DNA from: Candidatus Micrarchaeota archaeon
Lineage (GTDB): Archaea > Micrarchaeota > Micrarchaeia > Anstonellales > Bilamarchaeaceae
Direction: 5' to 3'
Assembly (NCBI GenBank): GCA_043827025.1
Contig: JBDRPL010000009.1
Location: 4,075 to 68,074 of the forward strand
Length of the DNA stretch: 64,000 bases
In this document: piece by piece, positions 5,669 to 13,434 of the stretch
How positions within the stretch are numbered: the first letter of the stretch is position 1
Layout of the letters: each line of letters begins with the position of its first letter
The notes under the pieces: generated by a model
Told to the model about the DNA's origin: nothing
The model's database searches: none
What the model saw: the letters and a program-made list of their open reading frames with translations, nothing else
Made by a program: the position numbers and the translations under genes

Positions 5669-8353
5669 CTATTTCCTCTCCCCATATTCCTTCAAGAACG
5701 CACTGTACTCTTTCAGCATATCTTCTGTCAAAGATGGCCTTCTTGTCTTTATTATCGCGGCAATGTTATCGGTGGTCATCTTTACCTTCTTTCCAGCTAT
5801 CTTCTGCCTAAGAATATCCATCTTCACCTGCTGGCAGATTGAATAAATGTCTGCACCTGTGAACCCAAGTGTCATTTTTCCAAGTTTCTTAAGATCAAGC
5901 CCGTCTGAAATATCTCCAAGATATAACTTGAACATCTCTGCCCTTCCTCTTTCATTTGGAGGTGGGATGTAGAATATCTTATCAAATCTTCCTGGTCTCA
6001 GAATCGCAGTATCAAGTGCACCAGGCCTATTGGTAGTCCCGACAACAACGACTCCCTTCAATTCGTTTATACCATCCATCTCTGTCAAAAATTGCCCTGT
6101 TACTTCAGAAGCCATGGTGCCCCGTGACGGTGCAATACTTTCAATTTCATCAACAAATATTATTGCAGGGGTATTCTCACGCGCACGGTTGAACGTTTCT
6201 TTTATTATTGAGACGGCCTGGCTATAACCTCGTTTCACAATTTCTGCTCCGGTGAGCACCTGGAAAGATGCCTTTAATTCTCCTGATGCTGCCTTTACAA
6301 TAAGGGTCTTACCTGTTCCTGGCGGACCGAAAAGCAGAATTCCTTTTGCAGGCTTTATTTTCATTTTTTTCATTTCTTCTTCATGCAATAAAGGGAATTC
6401 AATTGTTTCAAGGAATGCCTGTTTTACCCGATCCAACCCAATGACCTCTTCCCATTTTACAATCTCTTTCTTTTCTGTTTCTTTGGCCCCTATTCTCCTT
6501 TCGAAATCTGTCCTGAATTGCTTGAAGTTGTCAAGGCTTGCAATGCTTGTACTTGGCTTCACTTTGCTGATTATATCAATCACATGCTCTGTTTTCAATG
6601 GCACTACGACTCCTTTCTTCATAGCTTCCTTTGCAGCAAGTTTCACAGCCTCATTTATTATATTTTTTATGTCTGCACCGGAGAATCTCTCTGTTTTTTC
6701 TGCGAATTTTTTGTAGTCTATCTTGTCCTCAATAGGCAGGTTCTTGAGGTGGACTCTGAATATCGCTTCCCTTGTTTTCTTGTCAGGAAGAGACATATAT
6801 ATTATCTTATCAAGCCTTCCAGGCCTTAGCAATGCCTCGTCAATCTGGTCAGGCACATTCGTGGCGCCTATGAGTATAACTGGCTTCTTGGATTTTATTC
6901 CTCCATCTATCTGCTGGAGCAGAATGCTGAGCACTCTCTGTGCCACATCATCATTTTGCAGGCTCCTTTTCTTCCCTATGCTATCGATCTCATCGAAAAA
7001 CAATATGGACGGTGCATTCTTTCTGGCGATTTCGAAGACTTCGCTTACATTCCTTTCAGATTCGCCGTGCCATTGGCTCATGATATCGGATGCCTTCACA
7101 TAATAGAAACCATATTTCAGTTCCTTTGCCAATGCCCGCATGAGCATGGTTTTACCTGTTCCAGGAGGACCGAACAAAAGAATGCCTGATGGTGCCTTCA
7201 TCCCATAAGTATATGCAAGTTCTTTCTTTTCCAGAGGGACAACTATGGATTCCTTTAATTCATCCTTTACATCATCATAGCCCCCTACGTCTTTCATGGA
7301 GACTTCGCTGGAGCCAAGGCCCATGTCCTGCAAGCCGAACTTCCCGAATTTTTTCATCTTTTCAGTGCGGTTTATCTCTTCTTCCTTGCTTATCTTCACT
7401 TCGAATTGTTCGAGTATTGCTATTAAAATTACTGAAGATGCAACCATTCCTACGAATTCCATGTGGAATTCGGTTGAGGTCAGAGTGGCTATAAAATAAT
7501 AAATTGGGATTATAAGCAAATATGCTAAACTCGCAATGCTTTGTGACCTTCTGTTTCTCATTGTTCCTGAAAGGGAGCTGACGAGGTAAAGTACAACTGC
7601 CCACCCTAGTATCTGGATAATCCCAGTATCAGAGAATAGGACAAGCCAGACATTGCTGAATGTTTTTCCCATTGCATTGTCTAATTCGCTCACAGCCTCC
7701 CAGGTGGCAAGTCCTGCAAGCGAACTCAACCCTGTTGGAATGATTTGTACAATTTCCGTAGGGCCCTTGGAAATCATCAGGTCTTGACTTGCAGGCTGAT
7801 ACAACGCTATGTTCACTGGAAGGTATGCGCTATTTTCCATGAGCCATATGGAGGAAAAGAGGAGGATGAGAAATACAGATGCGCTTGCAATACCAAGGCT
7901 TTTCTTTGATCCGAAATGAAATGCAGCAATAAGCATTCCGAATATGGTAAACCATCCGAAGAACGAACCAAAAGGTGTGCCATGGAATGCAAATGGCGAT
8001 AGTATCAGTATCTGCAGGGCTGAAATTATTGCCCATTGGGTGAACATCTGGAAAAAGGTAAGTGATATCAATAATGTAAAGAGCCATGCAAGGGGGGCGG
8101 ATTGGTATGCAACTGCAGGGAATGCCAAGACCATTCCAAGGCCTGTGCCTGCCCATGGGACTTTATATGCCACGGCCCCGCAGATTATGGCAAGAATTAT
8201 ATTTAGTGGATTTGGGTAGAATGTAAAAGTGTTGAACAAAAACAGTGTTCCTAGAAATACAAGCATTGAGTTCCAGAACTCTTCATTATCTTGTATCATT
8301 TTTAGGTATGCCCGGACTTTTTGATGTGCCAAGGAGGTTTGCTGAGTTGCCAT
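5669..8353 (-). CDS. Tandem AAA+ (CDC48/VCP-like) ATPase with polytopic N-terminal membrane domain
   Basis: Two GPPGTGKT Walker A, FFDEID/FVDEIE Walker B, LLRPGRLD/ILRPGRFD arginine fingers; first ~320 aa carry about 10 hydrophobic helices. Confidence 0.92.
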   Translation of the reverse strand: MATQQTSLAHQKVRAYLKMIQDNEEFWNSMLVFLGTLFLFNTFTFYPNPLNIILAIICGAVAYKVPWAGTGLGMVLAFPAVAYQSAPLAWLFTLLISLTFFQMFTQWAIISALQILILSPFAFHGTPFGSFFGWFTIFGMLIAAFHFGSKKSLGIASASVFLILLFSSIWLMENSAYLPVNIALYQPASQDLMISKGPTEIVQIIPTGLSSLAGLATWEAVSELDNAMGKTFSNVWLVLFSDTGIIQILGWAVVLYLVSSLSGTMRNRRSQSIASLAYLLIIPIYYFIATLTSTEFHMEFVGMVASSVILIAILEQFEVKISKEEEINRTEKMKKFGKFGLQDMGLGSSEVSMKDVGGYDDVKDELKESIVVPLEKKELAYTYGMKAPSGILLFGPPGTGKTMLMRALAKELKYGFYYVKASDIMSQWHGESERNVSEVFEIARKNAPSILFFDEIDSIGKKRSLQNDDVAQRVLSILLQQIDGGIKSKKPVILIGATNVPDQIDEALLRPGRLDKIIYMSLPDKKTREAIFRVHLKNLPIEDKIDYKKFAEKTERFSGADIKNIINEAVKLAAKEAMKKGVVVPLKTEHVIDIISKVKPSTSIASLDNFKQFRTDFERRIGAKETEKKEIVKWEEVIGLDRVKQAFLETIEFPLLHEEEMKKMKIKPAKGILLFGPPGTGKTLIVKAASGELKASFQVLTGAEIVKRGYSQAVSIIKETFNRARENTPAIIFVDEIESIAPSRGTMASEVTGQFLTEMDGINELKGVVVVGTTNRPGALDTAILRPGRFDKIFYIPPPNERGRAEMFKLYLGDISDGLDLKKLGKMTLGFTGADIYSICQQVKMDILRQKIAGKKVKMTTDNIAAIIKTRRPSLTEDMLKEYSAFLKEYGERK

Positions 8354-9736: not shown

Positions 9737-10003
9737 TTATTCGATCTTTATTTCCACGCTTGGATTTATCTTTCTCCATTCTCCCATGTAGTTCTCCCAC
9801 AACGCCCTTATGGTCGAATCATATACCAAATTGTATTTTGATGCGACCTCTTTTGGCCTGTCGATTTCTATAAGAGGAAACCGCCTCATGAAGGAGATCT
9901 CGTCACGGAAGGGATTTCTTTCAATGACATATAGTCTTTTCTTTTCTCTTTTCTTGTCCTCACACCATTGGATTACTTTTTCAATTTCGTCCTTGGTTGT
10001 CAT
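9737..10003 (-). CDS. Hypothetical protein
   Basis: 88-aa ORF, protein-like composition, co-oriented with the hydrolase gene. Confidence 0.7.
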   Translation of the reverse strand: MTTKDEIEKVIQWCEDKKREKKRLYVIERNPFRDEISFMRRFPLIEIDRPKEVASKYNLVYDSTIRALWENYMGEWRKINPSVEIKIE

Positions 10004-10134
10004 ATTGTCATTTCACATGGGTTGTTTAAAATGTTGCCTTTTTTGTTAGCCTAAATGCAGCACGTTCGTCTTTTGTCGTCATTTTCTTCCAGTCCAAGTG
10101 ACAATTAAAAAGCTTTTGGTGGCATATTATTTTT

Positions 10135-10941
10135 ATGTTGGCTGAAGAGATTTTATCGCAGATAGATGTATTGCCAGTTAAAGAACTTTTACCTCATGAA
10201 GAAACGATATCTCTTAATCTGAAGAAGCTCAAGGAAGCAATGCTTAACATAGGCCATCTTGTAGATCCTGTTGTCATAGACAAAAAGACGAAACTGGTTC
10301 TCGACGGTCACCACAGAAGAAAGGTCCTTGACCTCATTGAATGTCCTAATGTCACCTGCCAGACTGTTGACTATATGAGTGACAAAATAACTGTTGGTTC
10401 GTGGTATCCTATATTTGACAATAAAAGTATTCGGGACGTCATTGCGACTCCGAATTTGAAATCAGAAGAGGTTGATTTTGAGGCTGGCCTCAATGCAGTG
10501 AATAAACTCCAGGCAGCATTTCTGATGTACCAGAATATTGATGGAAAGAAAAAAGCTTATTTGTTGAATCCTGGACATTATAAACTGAGAGAGATGATCG
10601 AAGAGCAGAACTTCGTATTCTCTACTATAAATGGTTCTATTAACTGGAGGTATATTTCAGACGATCTTGCAAGCAACTACCTTGAGACTGGGAGTACTGT
10701 GCTTTACAGGAGAATCTATTCAAAAGCAGAGATTGTGAAGATGGCACAGGACCACACCCCTTTTCCTCCGAAATCCACCCGGCATTGCATTCCTGACAGG
10801 ATTATCAGATTAAATATGAAATTAGGATGGTTGCACGAGGATAAGGACGAGGCATTCAACTATCTGAAGTCAATGCTTGAAAAGCGCCTTTATGAAGGCA
10901 ATGTAAGAAGGTATTCCGAGCCTGTGATTGTAATTTATTAA
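10135..10941 (+). CDS. serK: SerK-like ADP-dependent free serine kinase (ParB/Srx fold)
   Basis: PHEE, LDGHHR, WYP and FPPKSTRH match the Thermococcus SerK motifs PHEQ, VDGHHR, WYP, FSPKTTRH. Confidence 0.75.
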   Translation: MLAEEILSQIDVLPVKELLPHEETISLNLKKLKEAMLNIGHLVDPVVIDKKTKLVLDGHHRRKVLDLIECPNVTCQTVDYMSDKITVGSWYPIFDNKSIRDVIATPNLKSEEVDFEAGLNAVNKLQAAFLMYQNIDGKKKAYLLNPGHYKLREMIEEQNFVFSTINGSINWRYISDDLASNYLETGSTVLYRRIYSKAEIVKMAQDHTPFPPKSTRHCIPDRIIRLNMKLGWLHEDKDEAFNYLKSMLEKRLYEGNVRRYSEPVIVIY

Positions 10942-10972
10942 TTTTATTCGATTATTGCACTGTTGGTTCTAC

Positions 10973-11863
10973 ATGATCAAAAATCTCCTAAGGCAGACTT
11001 CAGTCATATTTTTGCTTGCGCTGGTTTTTGCATTTGTATCTCCTGGTTTTTCAACCACTGTAGATGATTATCTAACCCCATTGCTCATAGTTGCAATGAC
11101 CTTTTCTATTGTAGAAGTAAAATTCGATCTCCATACTTTCATAAAGGGAAAGGCATACCTCGCAAGGGCGTTTTTCTTTAATTATGTGGTCTGCACTGGA
11201 GTCACCCTTTTGCTTACCTACTTGCTAATTCAGGATCCTGACACTTTCAAGGGCATGGTGCTTTTTGCCTCAATTCCTTCTGCAGTTGGCGTTCTCTCCT
11301 ACTCGAAAATCCTGAAAGGCAATGGCGAATATGTCTTGAATGGGCAGATAATCCTCTATCTTGCCTCGCTTGTCTTGATGCCTTTAATAGTTTATTCCAT
11401 ATTGGGAACCTCAGTAGATACCTCAAAGCTTGTGGAAAGCCTTTTTCTTATGATTCTCCTTCCTCTTATTTTCTCTAGAATCGTAAGGAGGATGAACATC
11501 AAGAATCTTGCAGAATATGAAAAGATAATAATAAACATAGCATTCTTTTTCGTTTTCTATGCAGTACTTGGGCCGAACATGGACAAACTTGTTTTGAGTT
11601 CATTGACAATCGCTCTTTTCATGGTTTTCTTTTTCAGGAAGTTCATTGTGGGTACAATTGTCTTCTTTGCAGACAGATACTTAAAAGTGCCAAAGGATAT
11701 CGCAGTTGACGATGTTCTTTTCTCTACGTATAAGAACGAAGGGCTTGCAGTTGCGCTTGCAATGGCTCTTGCAGGCCCAGTTGCAGTATTTCCAGGGGCT
11801 ATAGTCACCATAGTTTCCGTATTCCTTTTCATTTATCTTGAGCAGATGTTTAAGATGTATTAG
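10973..11863 (+). CDS. Bile acid:sodium symporter (BASS) family transporter
   Basis: About 9-10 TM helices, PSAV/GNGE and KNEGLA Na-site-like motifs; ATG at 10973. Confidence 0.8.
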   Translation: MIKNLLRQTSVIFLLALVFAFVSPGFSTTVDDYLTPLLIVAMTFSIVEVKFDLHTFIKGKAYLARAFFFNYVVCTGVTLLLTYLLIQDPDTFKGMVLFASIPSAVGVLSYSKILKGNGEYVLNGQIILYLASLVLMPLIVYSILGTSVDTSKLVESLFLMILLPLIFSRIVRRMNIKNLAEYEKIIINIAFFFVFYAVLGPNMDKLVLSSLTIALFMVFFFRKFIVGTIVFFADRYLKVPKDIAVDDVLFSTYKNEGLAVALAMALAGPVAVFPGAIVTIVSVFLFIYLEQMFKMY

Positions 11864-11938
11864 TTGGCAGGGATTATGTCACCAGAGTTTACAGCACCTA
11901 TTTATTTTTTTTGTTTCATATTATTGGATGGTGAAATT

Positions 11939-13027
11939 ATGGTTTTATTAGGTCCAGGTCCGGTTCCTGTGCTACCCGAGATAAGCAATGCACAGACAAA
12001 GGAAATGATAACTCACAGAAGCAAGGAATTCACAGCACTTTATTCTGACCTTTGCACCAGATTAAGAGGTTATTTTGGCGCTGAGGAATCGTATGTCATC
12101 ACAGGTTCAGGAGCTCTTGGCCTTGAAGCACTGTTTGCTAATTTGACATTCAAGGATAAAGAAATAATCTGTTTTGCAAATGGGGAGTTTGGAGATAAAT
12201 TGGTTGAGACTGCGAATGTCTATACTGATTTTCGGGGATTCAATATAGGAGGGGTATTGCCTGAGGGAGGCATTGGCTGGAATCTTGAAAGGGCAAAAGC
12301 CCAGATTGACATTTCAAAGGCACAAGTCCTGGGAATGGTCTATAATGAGACTGGTTATGGCGTACGCAATCACATCAAGGAAATATGCAAGTATGCAAAA
12401 TCAAAAGGAATGATTACAATCATAGATGGTATTTCAGCATGGCCTGGAACTGAATTCAACATGAAGGAATTCCATGTGGATGGTTTTGTTACAGGGAGCC
12501 AGAAAGGCATCGGAGCGCCTCCTGGCATGGCCATGATTGGCCTGAGCAAAGAAGCTGTTAACATTTTTAGCAAAAGGAAAAGCATTCCTAGTTATTATCT
12601 TGACCTAAGAAGGCACAAGAAAAGATATGAAAAAGATCAGCAGACTCCAAATACACCTGCAATAAGTTTGTTTTGGGCATTGCAGAAGGCATTTGATATT
12701 CTTGATCGAGGCGGGGGGTTGCCAGCTTGCGTTAAACGTCATGCAGATGCAGCATCTCATGTTCGTTCGCGATTGACAAAGATGGGCTTTAGGTTGGTTG
12801 CAGAAAAAGGATTTGAATCCAATACAGTAACAGGTTTTGTTTGCGAAAGCCCAGAGCAGGCAAAGATGATAAAAGATAGATTAGACAAGGAGTTCCAGAT
12901 AAAGATTGTTGGCTGTAGAGGCTATTTCCTAAACAATGGACTAAGGATAGCTCACATGGGCAACTTCCAGATGAAATGGCTTGATGATTGTCTGGATGGG
13001 ATTGAGAAGATCATAAAAAAAGAATAA
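11939..13027 (+). CDS. Class V PLP aminotransferase (serine-pyruvate / phosphoserine aminotransferase-like)
   Basis: LGPGPVP, TGSG, NETG, IDGISA, TGSQKGIGAPPG (PLP Lys), NTPA; GGTGA RBS before ATG 11939. Confidence 0.9.
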   Translation: MVLLGPGPVPVLPEISNAQTKEMITHRSKEFTALYSDLCTRLRGYFGAEESYVITGSGALGLEALFANLTFKDKEIICFANGEFGDKLVETANVYTDFRGFNIGGVLPEGGIGWNLERAKAQIDISKAQVLGMVYNETGYGVRNHIKEICKYAKSKGMITIIDGISAWPGTEFNMKEFHVDGFVTGSQKGIGAPPGMAMIGLSKEAVNIFSKRKSIPSYYLDLRRHKKRYEKDQQTPNTPAISLFWALQKAFDILDRGGGLPACVKRHADAASHVRSRLTKMGFRLVAEKGFESNTVTGFVCESPEQAKMIKDRLDKEFQIKIVGCRGYFLNNGLRIAHMGNFQMKWLDDCLDGIEKIIKKE

Positions 13028-13029
13028 AG

Positions 13030-13434
13030 TTAAGCAGGCCGTCTTGTTTTTCCTGTCTTAACTGGAGTAGTTGCCTTAGGTTGTTCAAAGCTACCGGTAG
13101 CTGCTGGTAAACAGGCATCTCTTACTTGTCGAATGTATGTAGTTACCCTCTCTTGAGGCGTTTTTAATCCTGCAATCTTTTCTTCTCCAGCCCTTCTTAC
13201 AGCATCGCTCAAATCCCTTCTTTCAAGCAGTTTAGCAACAACACCAATACTTCCATTATGCTCATATGATTCTATGCTCCTAAGCAATGCCGGTTCTATT
13301 GCTTCTGTTAGTTGTGTAACTCCTTGTGATTGAACGTAATAATCAGCTAATGCATTCAACTTCTAGCTTCTAGCAAGCGCATCCAATGCATCTACAAAAT
13401 CTTCTTTGGTAACGTTATTCACTCCAGTTGTCAT
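13030..13434 (-). pseudogene. Orphan helical protein gene interrupted by an in-frame TAG (13363-13365)
   Basis: ATG 13434 with GAGTGGAG-like RBS reads MTTGVNNVTKEDFVDALDALARS*KLNALADYY..., continuing in frame into the 13030-13359 ORF. Confidence 0.6.

What the first reader, a model, noticed from the sequence alone, without database searches (positions are those of the whole stretch)
10135..13027. SerK-like kinase, Na+ symporter and class V aminotransferase: possible serine scavenging module
Seen: three co-oriented genes, with SerK catalytic motifs conserved (PHEE, DGHHR, WYP, KSTRH). Known: Thermococcus SerK phosphorylates free serine with ADP, and some archaeal class V aminotransferases act on phosphoserine. 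Inference: import serine, phosphorylate it, transaminate to 3-phosphohydroxypyruvate and feed lower glycolysis (needs a SerA-type enzyme, not in this window). This would be an energy or carbon route for a host-dependent cell and an unexpected amino-acid role for a BASS transporter.
Basis: partly seen in the sequence, partly recalled or inferred. Interest (0 to 1): 0.6.

Follow-up and report, generated by a model that had tools for sequence, protein, structure and literature searches.

The report
Serine kinase-like operon in a Micrarchaeote
A small symbiotic archaeon carries a distant relative of the archaeal free-serine kinase next to the aminotransferase of the phosphoserine pathway, which links serine to 3-phosphoglycerate in a known way with an unusual enzyme in the place of the normal phosphatase.

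Summary

- **Gene 1** is a distant SerK/SbnI-type protein. It scores 53 bits on NCBIfam SerK against a cut-off of 380, and its nearest solved relative is Thermococcus SerK. It belongs to a subfamily found in a subset of Micrarchaeota.
- **Gene 3** is an AGXT-type class V aminotransferase.
- **Linkage.** In 80 related loci the aminotransferase follows the kinase-like gene on the same strand in 55 of the 68 with room. A short 3-phosphoglycerate dehydrogenase (PGDH) lies in 25 of the 80.
- **The missing SerA-type enzyme.** This genome has that PGDH on another contig.
- **Co-occurrence.** In 120 sampled genomes of the phylum the three genes occur together (29 of 30 kinase-bearing genomes).

The module is therefore a phosphorylated serine pathway with a SerK-type enzyme where SerB stands elsewhere. 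One genome has SerB-aminotransferase-PGDH-SerRS instead.

The direction is open. Kinase chemistry favours serine to 3-phosphoglycerate (0.45). The tie to SerRS and the lack of SerB favour serine synthesis (0.33).

The BASS-like permease is a lineage-specific insert. It was seen here and on one related contig, and nothing ties it to serine.

A serK-aminotransferase-PGDH cluster is already in print for Desulfurococcales. This is a new variant of a known kind, of moderate interest.

The parts
10103..10112 (+). A/T-rich TATA-like box (AATTAAAAAG), about 25-30 nt upstream of the first ATG. Possible archaeal promoter of the operon, with a short or no leader.
   Evidence: Read directly from the sequence. 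This is inference only; no promoter tool for archaea was available.
10135..10941 (+). SerK/SbnI-type free-serine-kinase-like protein, 268 aa. Motifs: PHEE 10192-10203, DGHHR 10303-10317, WYP 10402-10410, KSTRH 10771-10785. It has a conserved tail of about 37 residues beyond the end of Thermococcus SerK.
   Evidence: SerK 53.3 bits, SbnI 25.1 bits; 5x0b E 1e-11; invariant H21 E22 D57 G58 H60 R61 W90 PPKSTRH; model pLDDT 78.8; Foldseek top hits 1vk1, SerK, SbnI at E about 1e-11; HE 75/75, DG[HN]HR 75/75, PPKSTRH 73/75.
10955..11863 (+). BASS/SBF-family permease-like membrane protein. ORF of 302 aa; probable start ATG 10973, giving 296 aa. A lineage-specific insertion between the two enzyme genes.
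   Evidence: SBF 33.5 bits; PanS 35.3 bits, cut-off 400; 0 of 80 loci; L097 homologue, 38% identity; ASBT fold.
11864..13027 (+). AGXT-type class V (PLP) aminotransferase, probable phosphoserine aminotransferase. ORF of 387 aa; probable start ATG 11939, giving 362 aa. The PLP lysine lies in SQK at ORF residue 214 (codon at 12503).
   Evidence: 2dr1 E 1.6e-34; SQK aligned; synteny; co-occurrence; aminotransferase-PGDH-SerRS operons; GGTGA before ATG 11939; position of SQK.

Best explanation
The genome is a Micrarchaeote (a DPANN archaeon).

**The three genes.**
- Gene 1 belongs to a subfamily of the SerK/SbnI free-serine-kinase fold that is found in a subset of Micrarchaeota.
- Gene 3 is the AGXT-type class V aminotransferase that, in this phylum, is the fixed partner of a short 3-phosphoglycerate dehydrogenase. 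It is therefore most likely the phosphoserine aminotransferase.
- The PGDH of this genome is encoded on another contig (C6).

**The module.** Together the three enzymes form the phosphorylated serine pathway, with the SerK-type enzyme standing where SerB stands in other lineages.

**Most likely working.** The kinase phosphorylates free L-serine with a nucleotide. The aminotransferase converts O-phosphoserine to 3-phosphohydroxypyruvate. PGDH reduces that with NADH to 3-phosphoglycerate. Serine taken up from the surroundings or the host thus enters central carbon metabolism.

**The permease.** The BASS-like permease was inserted into the operon only in this narrow lineage. Its substrate is unknown. 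By what the family is known to carry, it is more likely a small carboxylate than serine.

**Shown:** gene identities at family level, conserved motifs, synteny, co-occurrence, and the presence of PGDH, PGK, a phosphoglycerate-mutase-like gene and enolase.

**Inferred:** the substrates of all three proteins, the phosphate donor and the direction of flux.
For: **Kinase-like gene.**
- The only NCBIfam hits are SerK and SbnI.
- The best solved relatives are Thermococcus SerK, its Pyrococcus homologue and SbnI, by sequence and by fold.
- The residue aligned to SerK Glu30 is E22. Glu30 is the position mutated in PDB entries 5x0e, 5x0g, 5x0j and 5x0k (titles).
- Motif counts in 75 full-length relatives: HE 75 of 75, DG[HN]HR 75 of 75, PPKSTRH 73 of 75.

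**Linkage.**
- The aminotransferase lies downstream on the same strand in 55 of 68 loci with room, 27 of them with a gap of 150 nt or less.
- PGDH is present in 25 of 80 loci, mostly directly after the aminotransferase.

**Co-occurrence in 120 sampled genomes of the phylum.**
- 30 carry the kinase-like gene. Of these, 29 also carry the aminotransferase, and all 29 carry the PGDH orthologue.
- Genus g3 of the same family lacks the kinase-like gene and the aminotransferase in all 3 genomes. Two of the 3 also lack any PGDH match, and G065 has only weaker matches (best E 5e-46; the place table gives 40% and 29% identity).

**PGDH identity.** It scores best on TIGR01327 PGDH (330 bits) against glyoxylate reductase (226 bits).

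**Phosphorylated route.** G113 has SerB directly upstream of aminotransferase-PGDH.

**Kinase direction.**
- The characterised relatives are kinases. Makino 2016 (PMC5120207, passages read) shows ADP-dependent phosphorylation of free serine, and serK next to PGDH and aminotransferase genes in Desulfurococcales.
- GapMind 2026 (PMC13759103, passages read) gives an equilibrium constant of 4e-4 for the reverse reaction.

**Downstream enzymes in this genome.** PGK, a phosphoglycerate-mutase-like gene, enolase and a PEP-synthase/PPDK-like gene are present.

**No other visible user of phosphoserine.** SepRS is absent, CysRS is present, and there is no CysK.
Against: - No enzyme activity was tested.
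- The protein is far below the curated SerK cut-off (53 against 380 bits). It is 22-23% identical to SerK in the Foldseek alignments.
- Most of the subfamily has DGNHR where SerK has DGHHR (70 of 75).
- The subfamily carries a conserved C-terminal tail that SerK lacks.
- The context elsewhere in the phylum is biosynthetic. Aminotransferase-PGDH-SerRS lie in one row in 10 of 10 genomes examined, six of which carry the kinase-like gene elsewhere.
- No SerB was found in this genome. Only 2 of the 30 kinase-bearing genomes have a SerB-like match in a frame of ordinary size. The kinase-like protein could therefore stand in for SerB.
- Serine to 3-phosphoglycerate costs one phosphoanhydride bond and one NADH, so it gains no energy.
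- Pyruvate kinase was not found.
Confidence: 0.45

Rival explanations
1. Stand-in for SerB in serine synthesis. The pathway runs 3-phosphoglycerate to phosphohydroxypyruvate to phosphoserine to serine. The SerK-like protein carries out or enables the last step, by phosphate transfer to a nucleotide or another acceptor, or by hydrolysis. It may work in both directions, as proposed for the bacterial DUF1015 'SerBK' proteins.
For: - Aminotransferase-PGDH-SerRS lie in a row in 10 of 10 genomes examined. G113, which lacks the kinase-like gene, has SerB directly upstream of that row. In this family the kinase-like gene takes that upstream place.
- SerB reaches the cut-off in 4 of 121 genomes, and none of those has a strong kinase-like match.
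- Of the 30 kinase-bearing genomes, 18 have no SerB match at E <= 1e-8. Ten have only weak partial matches (34-42 bits) in frames of 864-1023 aa. Two (G097 at 139 bits, G117 at 77 bits) have a SerB-like gene of ordinary size.
- This genome has SHMT, TrpB and SerRS, which use serine.
- Precedent: GapMind 2026 (PMC13759103, passages read) shows that DUF1015 proteins complement an E. coli serB mutant. They are distant structural relatives of SbnI and are encoded with serA and serC.
Against: - The reverse kinase reaction is strongly unfavourable (K about 4e-4, same paper).
- All characterised members of the fold are kinases.
- This genome has at least five HAD_2-type phosphatase-like genes that could hide a phosphoserine phosphatase.
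- G097 has both a near-cut-off SerB and the full kinase operon.
- Two genomes (G071, G141) have aminotransferase-PGDH-SerRS with neither SerB nor the kinase-like gene, so an unseen phosphatase exists in the phylum.
- The genomes are related to each other, so the complementary pattern rests on few independent events.
Confidence: 0.33
2. Supply of phosphoserine for another use, such as cysteine synthesis from phosphoserine as in Thermococcus, or Sep-tRNA. The kinase and the aminotransferase-PGDH branch would both feed the phosphoserine pool.
For: - Makino 2016 (PMC5120207) shows this role for SerK in T. kodakarensis.
- This genome has a divergent 548-aa fold-type II PLP enzyme of unknown function (C7:14559-16202; PALP 103 bits). 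It could use a phospho-amino acid.
Against: - No SepRS was found, and CysRS is present.
- The only PALP enzymes are TrpB and that divergent protein.
- The divergent protein is in only 5 of the 120 sampled genomes, against 30 with the kinase-like gene.
Confidence: 0.06
3. Non-phosphorylated route. The aminotransferase acts on free serine (serine:pyruvate or serine:glyoxylate type), the dehydrogenase is a hydroxypyruvate reductase, and the SerK-like protein phosphorylates glycerate.
For: - The nearest solved relatives of the aminotransferase are named serine or alanine-glyoxylate aminotransferases.
- Canonical SerC models score only 38 bits.
- Glyoxylate reductase is the third-best NCBIfam match of the dehydrogenase, at 226 bits, after two PGDH models.
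Against: - PGDH is the best match of the dehydrogenase, by about 100 bits.
- SerB, which acts on phosphoserine, heads the same gene row in G113.
- The kinase-like protein keeps the SerK motifs.
Confidence: 0.05
4. The ParB-fold protein is not a metabolic kinase here. It is instead a nucleotide-binding regulator of the neighbouring genes; SbnI is also a transcription regulator.
For: - The NCBIfam name of SbnI is 'bifunctional transcriptional regulator/O-phospho-L-serine synthase'.
- A survey of the fold reports varied nucleotide binding (PMC12704722, passages read).
Against: - No DNA-binding domain was found.
- The catalytic-type motifs are invariant.
- The gene is kept together with the two enzymes across 29 of 30 genomes.
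Confidence: 0.05

Closest known systems
ADP-dependent free serine kinase SerK (T. kodakarensis TK0378; PDB 5x0b and others) and the serK-PGDH-aminotransferase clusters of Desulfurococcales (Makino 2016, PMC5120207)
   Same: - Best sequence and fold match.
- The PHE, DGxHR, W-Y-P and K(S/T)TRH motifs are shared.
- The gene sits in an operon with an aminotransferase and a PGDH, as described for Desulfurococcus and Staphylothermus.
   Different: - Only 22-23% identical in the Foldseek alignments, and 53 bits against a cut-off of 380.
- DGNHR in 70 of 75 relatives.
- A conserved tail of about 37 residues.
- Found in mesophilic DPANN archaea. Makino 2016 states that clear-cut homologues were not found outside four hyperthermophile genera.
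- The phosphate donor is unknown.
SbnI, the ATP-dependent serine kinase and regulator of staphyloferrin B synthesis (PDB 5ujd, 6nr6)
   Same: - Same fold.
- The match runs over nearly the whole length, including the C-terminal part (query 4-266 on model positions 2-251 of 254; Foldseek E about 1e-11).
   Different: - 25 bits against a cut-off of 350.
- No siderophore genes nearby.
- Different partners.
SerBK (DUF1015) of Clostridioides, Clostridium and Bacteroides (GapMind 2026, PMC13759103)
   Same: - A protein related to serine kinases, encoded with serA and serC in genomes that lack SerB.
- The same open question about direction.
   Different: - No Pfam family, DUF1015 included, matched at E <= 0.01.
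- Those proteins are bacterial and only remote structural relatives of SbnI.
Archaeal AGXT-type class V aminotransferases used as phosphoserine aminotransferase: TK1548 in Makino 2016; PH1308 (PDB 2dr1); Methanocaldococcus MJ0959 (the last recalled, not checked here)
   Same: - The best solved relative is 2dr1 (E 1.6e-34).
- The PLP lysine in SQK is conserved.
- Partnered with PGDH.
   Different: - Substrate not tested.
- The best NCBIfam score is on the PhnW-AepZ model (142 bits, below the 360.8 cut-off).
Bacterial BASS homologues ASBT_NM, ASBT_Yf and PanS
   Same: - Pfam SBF above the gathering score.
- Full-length fold match with TM 0.67-0.77.
- Weak full-length match to PanS.
   Different: - 18-24% identical.
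- Very few relatives: 2 proteins, one of them the window's own.
- Substrate and ion coupling unknown.
- An ASBT_NM structure with pantoate is on record (8oyg). It points to small hydroxy-acids, not amino acids.

Membership tests
SerK (NCBIfam NF053625, equivalog) | Whole-protein score at or above the curated cut-off (380 bits) | tested here: not met
   53.3 bits. Sixteen relatives sampled from the wider family scored 42-95 bits.
SerK (NCBIfam NF053625, equivalog) | Two-domain SerK fold with a ParB/Srx-like N-terminal domain | tested here: met
   AF2 model with pLDDT 78.8. The nine hits with Foldseek E <= 0.001 are all SerK, its Pyrococcus homologue or SbnI, at E about 1e-11 and TM about 0.5 over 236-274 columns.
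SerK (NCBIfam NF053625, equivalog) | Catalytic glutamate (Glu30 of Tk-SerK) and the DGHHR and KTTRH stretches | tested here: met
   E22 aligns to Glu30 (mutant titles E30A and E30Q). HE is in 75/75 relatives, DG[HN]HR in 75/75 (N in 70) and PPKSTRH in 73/75. The role of Glu30 as catalytic base is recalled from Nagata 2017, which is not held.
SerK (NCBIfam NF053625, equivalog) | ADP-dependent phosphorylation of free L-serine | not testable with these tools
   Needs an enzyme assay.
SbnI (NCBIfam NF033589) | Score at or above the cut-off (350 bits) | tested here: not met
   25.1 bits.
SerBK / DUF1015 | Match to the Pfam DUF1015 model | tested here: not met
   No Pfam family at E <= 0.01 for the 268-aa protein.
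BASS / SBF (Pfam PF01758) | Score at or above the gathering score (24.3 bits) | tested here: met
   33.5 bits over residues 42-204. P0280 scores 27.3 bits. The L097, G008 and G023 homologues fall below it.
BASS / SBF (Pfam PF01758) | ASBT-type fold of about ten helices | tested here: met
   Model pLDDT 66.8, from only 5 sequences. Foldseek top 15 hits are ASBT_Yf and ASBT_NM, with TM 0.66-0.77. The model is of modest confidence.
BASS / SBF (Pfam PF01758) | Na+ sites and Na+-coupled transport; the substrate | not tested
   Site residues were not mapped. Transport needs an assay.
Class V aminotransferase (Pfam PF00266), AGXT/SPT branch | Gathering score and the PLP lysine | tested here: met
   68.6 bits against 21.5. 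SQK with K214 aligns to SQK of 2dr1.
Canonical SerC (TIGR01364, NF003764) | Score at or above the cut-off | tested here: not met
   38.3 bits against 443.6, and 37.8 against 253. If it is a phosphoserine aminotransferase, it is of the AGXT-like archaeal type.
Phosphoserine aminotransferase (function) | Encoded with SerA- and SerB-type genes; acts on phosphoserine | tested here: inconclusive
   Context is met: PGDH is adjacent in 25 of 80 loci, and the SerB-aminotransferase-PGDH-SerRS row occurs in G113. Activity is not testable here.
PGDH (TIGR01327), the unlinked partner at G000:C6:17051-17926 | Score at or above the cut-off (454 bits) | tested here: not met
   329.9 bits over model positions 2-301 of 525. 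It is a short form without the C-terminal regulatory part, and PGDH is still its best family.

The most novel reading that the evidence does not exclude
In a large part of the Micrarchaeota, a kinase-fold protein of the SerK/SbnI type has displaced phosphoserine phosphatase as the last enzyme of serine synthesis. It would be the archaeal counterpart of the bacterial SerBK puzzle. The H-to-N change in the nucleotide motif and the conserved tail would then mark a change of chemistry, for example phosphate transfer from phosphoserine to an acceptor other than a low-energy nucleotide, or hydrolysis.
Probability: 0.3. Interest if true: 0.65.

Novelty: new variant of a known kind. Interest (0 to 1): 0.45.

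Why it matters
- **Metabolic models of DPANN archaea.** These archaea are usually modelled as unable to make or to use most amino acids. A conserved three-enzyme link between serine and 3-phosphoglycerate changes that for much of the Micrarchaeota. Which way it runs decides whether these cells make their own serine or draw carbon from host serine.
- **Reach of the SerK family.** The 2016 paper saw clear-cut homologues only in four hyperthermophile genera. Here the wider family has 637 cluster representatives at E <= 1e-10.
- **The SerB question.** It gives an independent archaeal case for the open question raised by SerBK: how a kinase-type protein can sit where SerB should be.

Tried and rejected
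**Sep-tRNA route.** Rejected for this genome. There is no SepRS (37.5 bits on PheRS alpha only), and CysRS is present.

**Cysteine from phosphoserine by CysK.** No CysK was found. The odd PALP protein is too rare to be the general partner (5 of 120).

**BASS as a conserved partner.** Rejected:
- 0 of 80 loci.
- 2 of 40 relatives, with the kinase-like gene on other contigs in both.
- A pattern scan of metagenome contigs with the permease found nothing.

**A transporter of another family in the same slot.** Not found. Of 15 proteins scanned, 14 are genes lying between the kinase-like gene and the aminotransferase in other loci. None matched a transporter family: two are beta-helix/NosD proteins, one is a protein kinase, and the other 11 had no Pfam match. 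The 15th, the L097 permease homologue, also had no match. A TrmB-like regulator in that slot had been scanned earlier.

**HEAT-repeat protein after the aminotransferase.** No function found.

**Neighbours of the kinase-like gene where the aminotransferase is not nearby.** Nothing consistent. One locus (L037) has a small HAD-like hydrolase right after it.

**Literature.**
- Nagata 2017 and the SbnI paper are not held, so the substrate-binding residues of SerK could not be checked one by one.
- A search for Micrarchaeota plus serine kinase gave one paper, on another subject.
- A wider search gave nothing on Micrarchaeota serine metabolism.


Full report
**1. What is in the window**

One search gives three adjoining ORFs on the + strand: 10135-10941 (268 aa), 10955-11863 (302 aa) and 11864-13027 (387 aa). 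A divergent small gene lies upstream (9737-10003, - strand) and a convergent one downstream (13030-13359, - strand). The three therefore form their own unit.

- An A/T-rich TATA-like stretch lies about 25-30 nt before the first ATG. This is inference only.
- The permease probably starts at ATG 10973. The database copy has 296 aa.
- The aminotransferase probably starts at ATG 11939, which is preceded by GGTGA and is where homologues begin to align.

**2. The organism**

Homologues of the first protein are named Micrarchaeota, Micrarchaeia or Bilamarchaeum wherever a name is given. The genome held for the window has 1.33 Mb in 36 contigs. It is 91.6% complete with 1.7% contamination.

**3. The kinase-like protein**

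- Pfam finds nothing at E <= 0.01.
- NCBIfam finds only SerK (53.3 bits, cut-off 380) and SbnI (25.1 bits, cut-off 350).
- Against solved structures the best matches are Thermococcus 'free serine kinase' (5x0b, E 1e-11), the Pyrococcus homologue 1vk1 and SbnI.
- An AlphaFold model from 28 relatives (pLDDT 78.8) finds the same nine entries first, at E about 1e-11. ParB and sulfiredoxin domains follow far behind.
- In the alignment, P20-H21-E22 fall on P-H-E30 of SerK. Glu30 is the residue mutated in the deposited E30A and E30Q structures.

The protein belongs to a tight subfamily:

- 302 proteins at E <= 1e-3, with the 120 listed 52-93% identical. Three of them carry the JGI name 'L-serine kinase (ADP)'.
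- Invariant H21, E22, D57, G58, H60, R61, W90 and PPKSTRH, plus a conserved tail (residues about 232-268) that lies beyond the end of SerK.
- In 75 full-length copies from related loci, HE is present in 75, DG[HN]HR in 75 (N in 70, H in 5) and PPKSTRH in 73. The window's DGHHR is thus the minority form.

A profile search of 1.84 billion cluster representatives found 1592 proteins at E <= 0.001, 637 at E <= 1e-10 and 25 at E <= 1e-30. One more distant cluster is from Nitrososphaerota/Conexivisphaerales. Sixteen sampled members score 42-95 bits on the SerK model. This is therefore a wide, uncurated SerK-like family, and the window's protein sits in its Micrarchaeota branch.

**4. The aminotransferase**

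- Pfam Aminotran_5 scores 68.6 bits.
- The nearest solved proteins are the Pyrococcus 'serine aminotransferase' 2dr1 (E 1.6e-34), then alanine-glyoxylate and serine-pyruvate aminotransferases.
- Canonical SerC models score 38 bits.
- The PLP lysine (SQK, K214 of the ORF) is in place.
- In this genome, besides weak matches (38 bits or less) elsewhere, the only other class V match is a strong one of 472 bits. I take it to be a NifS/IscS-type cysteine desulfurase by its score on the Pfam model. It was not named by a curated model.

**5. The permease**

- Pfam SBF scores 33.5 bits, above the gathering score.
- There is a weak full-length match to PanS.
- A modest model (pLDDT 66.8, five sequences) matches ASBT_Yf and ASBT_NM over the full length, with TM 0.66-0.77.
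- It has very few relatives. The word-indexed search gave the window's own protein and one at 34% identity.

**6. Gene neighbourhoods**

A scan of one genome per species found 150 loci encoding a relative of the kinase-like protein, and the best 80 were kept.

| Feature | Count |
|---|---|
| Loci with at least 1300 nt downstream of the kinase-like gene | 68 of 80 |
| Aminotransferase downstream, same strand | 55 of 68 |
| ... with gap <= 150 nt | 27 |
| ... with gap 150-1500 nt | 19 |
| ... with gap 1500-3000 nt | 4 |
| ... with gap > 3000 nt | 5 |
| Overlapping start (L078) | 1 |
| No aminotransferase | 12 |
| PGDH-type gene anywhere in the locus | 25 of 80 |
| Permease | 0 of 80 |

- The D-2-hydroxyacid dehydrogenase of about 294 aa (Pfam 2-Hacid_dh_C, 206 bits) usually lies directly after the aminotransferase.
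- Other recurrent neighbours are a HEAT-repeat protein after the aminotransferase (24 loci) and a small TrmB-like regulator between the two genes (cluster of 12 loci).
- The permease slot is filled the same way on one metagenome contig. On L097 the kinase-like protein is 69% identical, the permease 38% and the aminotransferase 55%.
- Permease homologues exist in 2 of 40 related genomes at 27-29% identity.
- In those two genomes the kinase-like gene lies on other contigs. One of the permease homologues sits between a carbamoyltransferase gene and the small chain of carbamoyl-phosphate synthase.

**7. The missing SerA-type enzyme**

This genome has one orthologue of that dehydrogenase at C6:17051-17926, 52-62% identical to the 23 operon copies. 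Its best NCBIfam model is PGDH TIGR01327 (329.9 bits over positions 2-301 of 525, a short form). Glyoxylate reductase scores 225.6 bits.

**8. Distribution in the phylum**

The sample is 120 other genomes, drawn evenly.

*Kinase-like gene.* There are 29 strong matches (E <= 1e-40) and one weak split copy (G019). By family they fall as f1 19 of 22, f6 8 of 8, f12 2 of 2, and one in f15. There are none in f13 (0 of 38) or f14 (0 of 22). Four further weak matches cover only the N-terminal ParB-like part. I did not count them.

*Aminotransferase.* At E <= 1e-60 it is in 30 genomes, 29 of them the same ones. G117 has the kinase-like gene only and G116 the aminotransferase only. More distant copies are in G113, G123, G071 and G141.

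*PGDH orthologue.* It is in all 29, and also in G116, G113, G071 and G141.

*Genus g3 of the same family.* All three genomes lack the kinase-like gene and the aminotransferase. Two of the three have no PGDH match. G065 has two weaker matches (best E 5e-46; the place table gives 40% and 29% identity).

*SerB (TIGR00338).*
- It is over the cut-off in 4 of 121 genomes (G113, G069, G052, G043). None of these has a strong kinase-like match.
- Among the 30 kinase-bearing genomes, two have a SerB-like gene of ordinary size: G097 (139 bits, just under the cut-off) and G117 (77 bits).
- Ten have only 34-42-bit partial matches inside frames of 864-1023 aa. I take these to be P-type ATPases; this was not verified.
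- Eighteen have nothing at E <= 1e-8.

**9. An operon with SerRS**

I fetched ten genomes in which the coordinates showed the aminotransferase and PGDH side by side. This was a selection on that feature.

- Without the kinase-like gene: G113, G071, G116, G141.
- With it elsewhere in the genome: G105, G037, G035, G029, G083, G108.

In 10 of 10 the order is aminotransferase, PGDH, seryl-tRNA synthetase on one strand. In G113, SerB (204 bits) lies directly upstream of this row. None of the 80 kinase loci holds SerRS or a G113-type SerB, and this genome's SerRS is on contig C24.

**10. The rest of this genome**

| Status | Item |
|---|---|
| Present | SHMT |
| Present | TrpB |
| Present | Enolase |
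| Present | PGK |
| Present | Cofactor-independent phosphoglycerate-mutase-like gene |
| Present | PEP-synthase/PPDK-like gene |
| Present | CysRS |
| Present | At least five HAD_2-type phosphatase-like genes |
| Not found | SepRS |
| Not found | SerB |
| Not found | CysK/CysM |
| Not found | Pyruvate kinase |
| Not found | Histidine-phosphatase family |

The genome is 91.6% complete, so 'not found' is not 'absent'.

**11. Reading**

The three enzymes are coupled by position and by joint presence and loss. The dehydrogenase is of the PGDH type, and SerB heads the same row in one lineage. The pathway is therefore the phosphorylated one, and the aminotransferase most likely acts on phosphoserine. 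The kinase-like protein stands at the serine/phosphoserine step. That much I hold at about 0.8.

The direction is not settled.

*For serine to 3-phosphoglycerate:*
- Every characterised member of the fold is a kinase. Makino 2016 (PMC5120207, passages read) proposed exactly this route and noted serK-PGDH-aminotransferase clusters in Desulfurococcales.
- The reverse reaction is very unfavourable. GapMind 2026 (PMC13759103, passages read) gives K about 4e-4.
- HAD phosphatases that could be the true phosphoserine phosphatase are present.
- G097 has both SerB and the kinase operon.

*For serine synthesis with the kinase-like protein in SerB's place:*
- The link to SerRS.
- The near-complementary pattern with SerB.
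- The precedent of SerBK.

I put assimilation at 0.45 and the SerB-substitute (or two-way) reading at 0.33.

The balance of the assimilation route is inference. It costs one phosphoanhydride bond and one NADH per serine up to 3-phosphoglycerate, so it supplies carbon or takes up reducing power. It does not supply energy.

**12. The permease**

It is real and of the BASS fold, but its place in the operon is a recent, narrow event. BASS members with known substrates carry organic anions such as bile acids, pantoate and other hydroxy- or keto-acids. This is established knowledge of the family, and an ASBT_NM-pantoate structure appears. An amino-acid role has no support here. A role for an amino-group acceptor or another carboxylate is as likely, and none was tested.

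**13. Comparison and novelty**

- The cluster of a serine kinase with an aminotransferase and PGDH is in print for Desulfurococcales. Some members of this subfamily already carry an automatic 'L-serine kinase (ADP)' label.
- New here are the distant Micrarchaeota subfamily with its own motif variant and tail, its tight coupling to the aminotransferase-PGDH pair, and the SerB-complementary pattern with a SerRS-linked operon.
- Two searches of the held literature found no paper that describes this. Subscription journals and the supplements of the papers cited were not seen.
- Verdict: a new variant of a known kind, of moderate interest.

Noticed in passing
L107 4293-7708; L108 3555-6817; L115 2038-5220; L116 2509-5654; L117 2125-5311 and others: Aminotransferase, short PGDH and seryl-tRNA synthetase lie in one row on one strand in 10 of 10 Micrarchaeota genomes examined, once with SerB in front (G113). 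A serine-synthesis operon that includes SerRS seems to be the older arrangement in the phylum.
   Followed up: partly
G000:C7:14559-16202 (L090 1447-3093): A 548-aa fold-type II PLP enzyme (PALP 103 bits) with a long C-terminal extension. It has only weak likeness to serine dehydratases, threonine synthase and CysM. It was found in 5 of 120 sampled genomes, all of the window's family.
   Followed up: partly
L061 8323-9510 and 23 other loci; own copy at G000:C6:68453-69619: A protein of about 395 aa with an N-terminal HEAT repeat follows the aminotransferase in 24 of the 80 loci. No function was found with Pfam, NCBIfam or the protein atlas.
   Followed up: partly
L023 7235-7600, L024 7539-7937, L025 2724-3089, L033 7234-7581 and others: A small TrmB/MarR-like regulator (about 120 aa) sits between the kinase-like gene and the aminotransferase in a subset of loci (cluster of 12). 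It may control the operon.
   Followed up: no
L085 556-3462 (G023:C9): The permease homologue of G023 lies between an aspartate/ornithine carbamoyltransferase gene and the small chain of carbamoyl-phosphate synthase. This context is unrelated to serine.
   Followed up: no
L037 5983-8304: In one locus the kinase-like gene is followed at 29 nt by a small HAD-like hydrolase (194 aa), then a calcineurin-like phosphoesterase. This is a single case of a kinase-like gene next to phosphatase-like genes.
   Followed up: no
window 9737-10003 (- strand): The 88-aa protein upstream of the operon has homologues (55-60% identity) about 4.5 kb upstream of the kinase-like gene in 8 of the 80 loci. It matches no family.
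   Followed up: no
window 5669-8353 (- strand): An 894-aa protein with a long hydrophobic N-terminal part and two GPPGTGKT Walker A motifs. It looks like a membrane-anchored double AAA+ ATPase of the CDC48 type. This was read from the translation only.
   Followed up: no
whole genome G000: Pyruvate kinase was not found, while a PEP-synthase/PPDK-like gene (791-aa frame, C7:38895-39842), enolase, PGK and a phosphoglycerate-mutase-like gene are present. The lower part of glycolysis may be set up for the gluconeogenic direction.
   Followed up: partly
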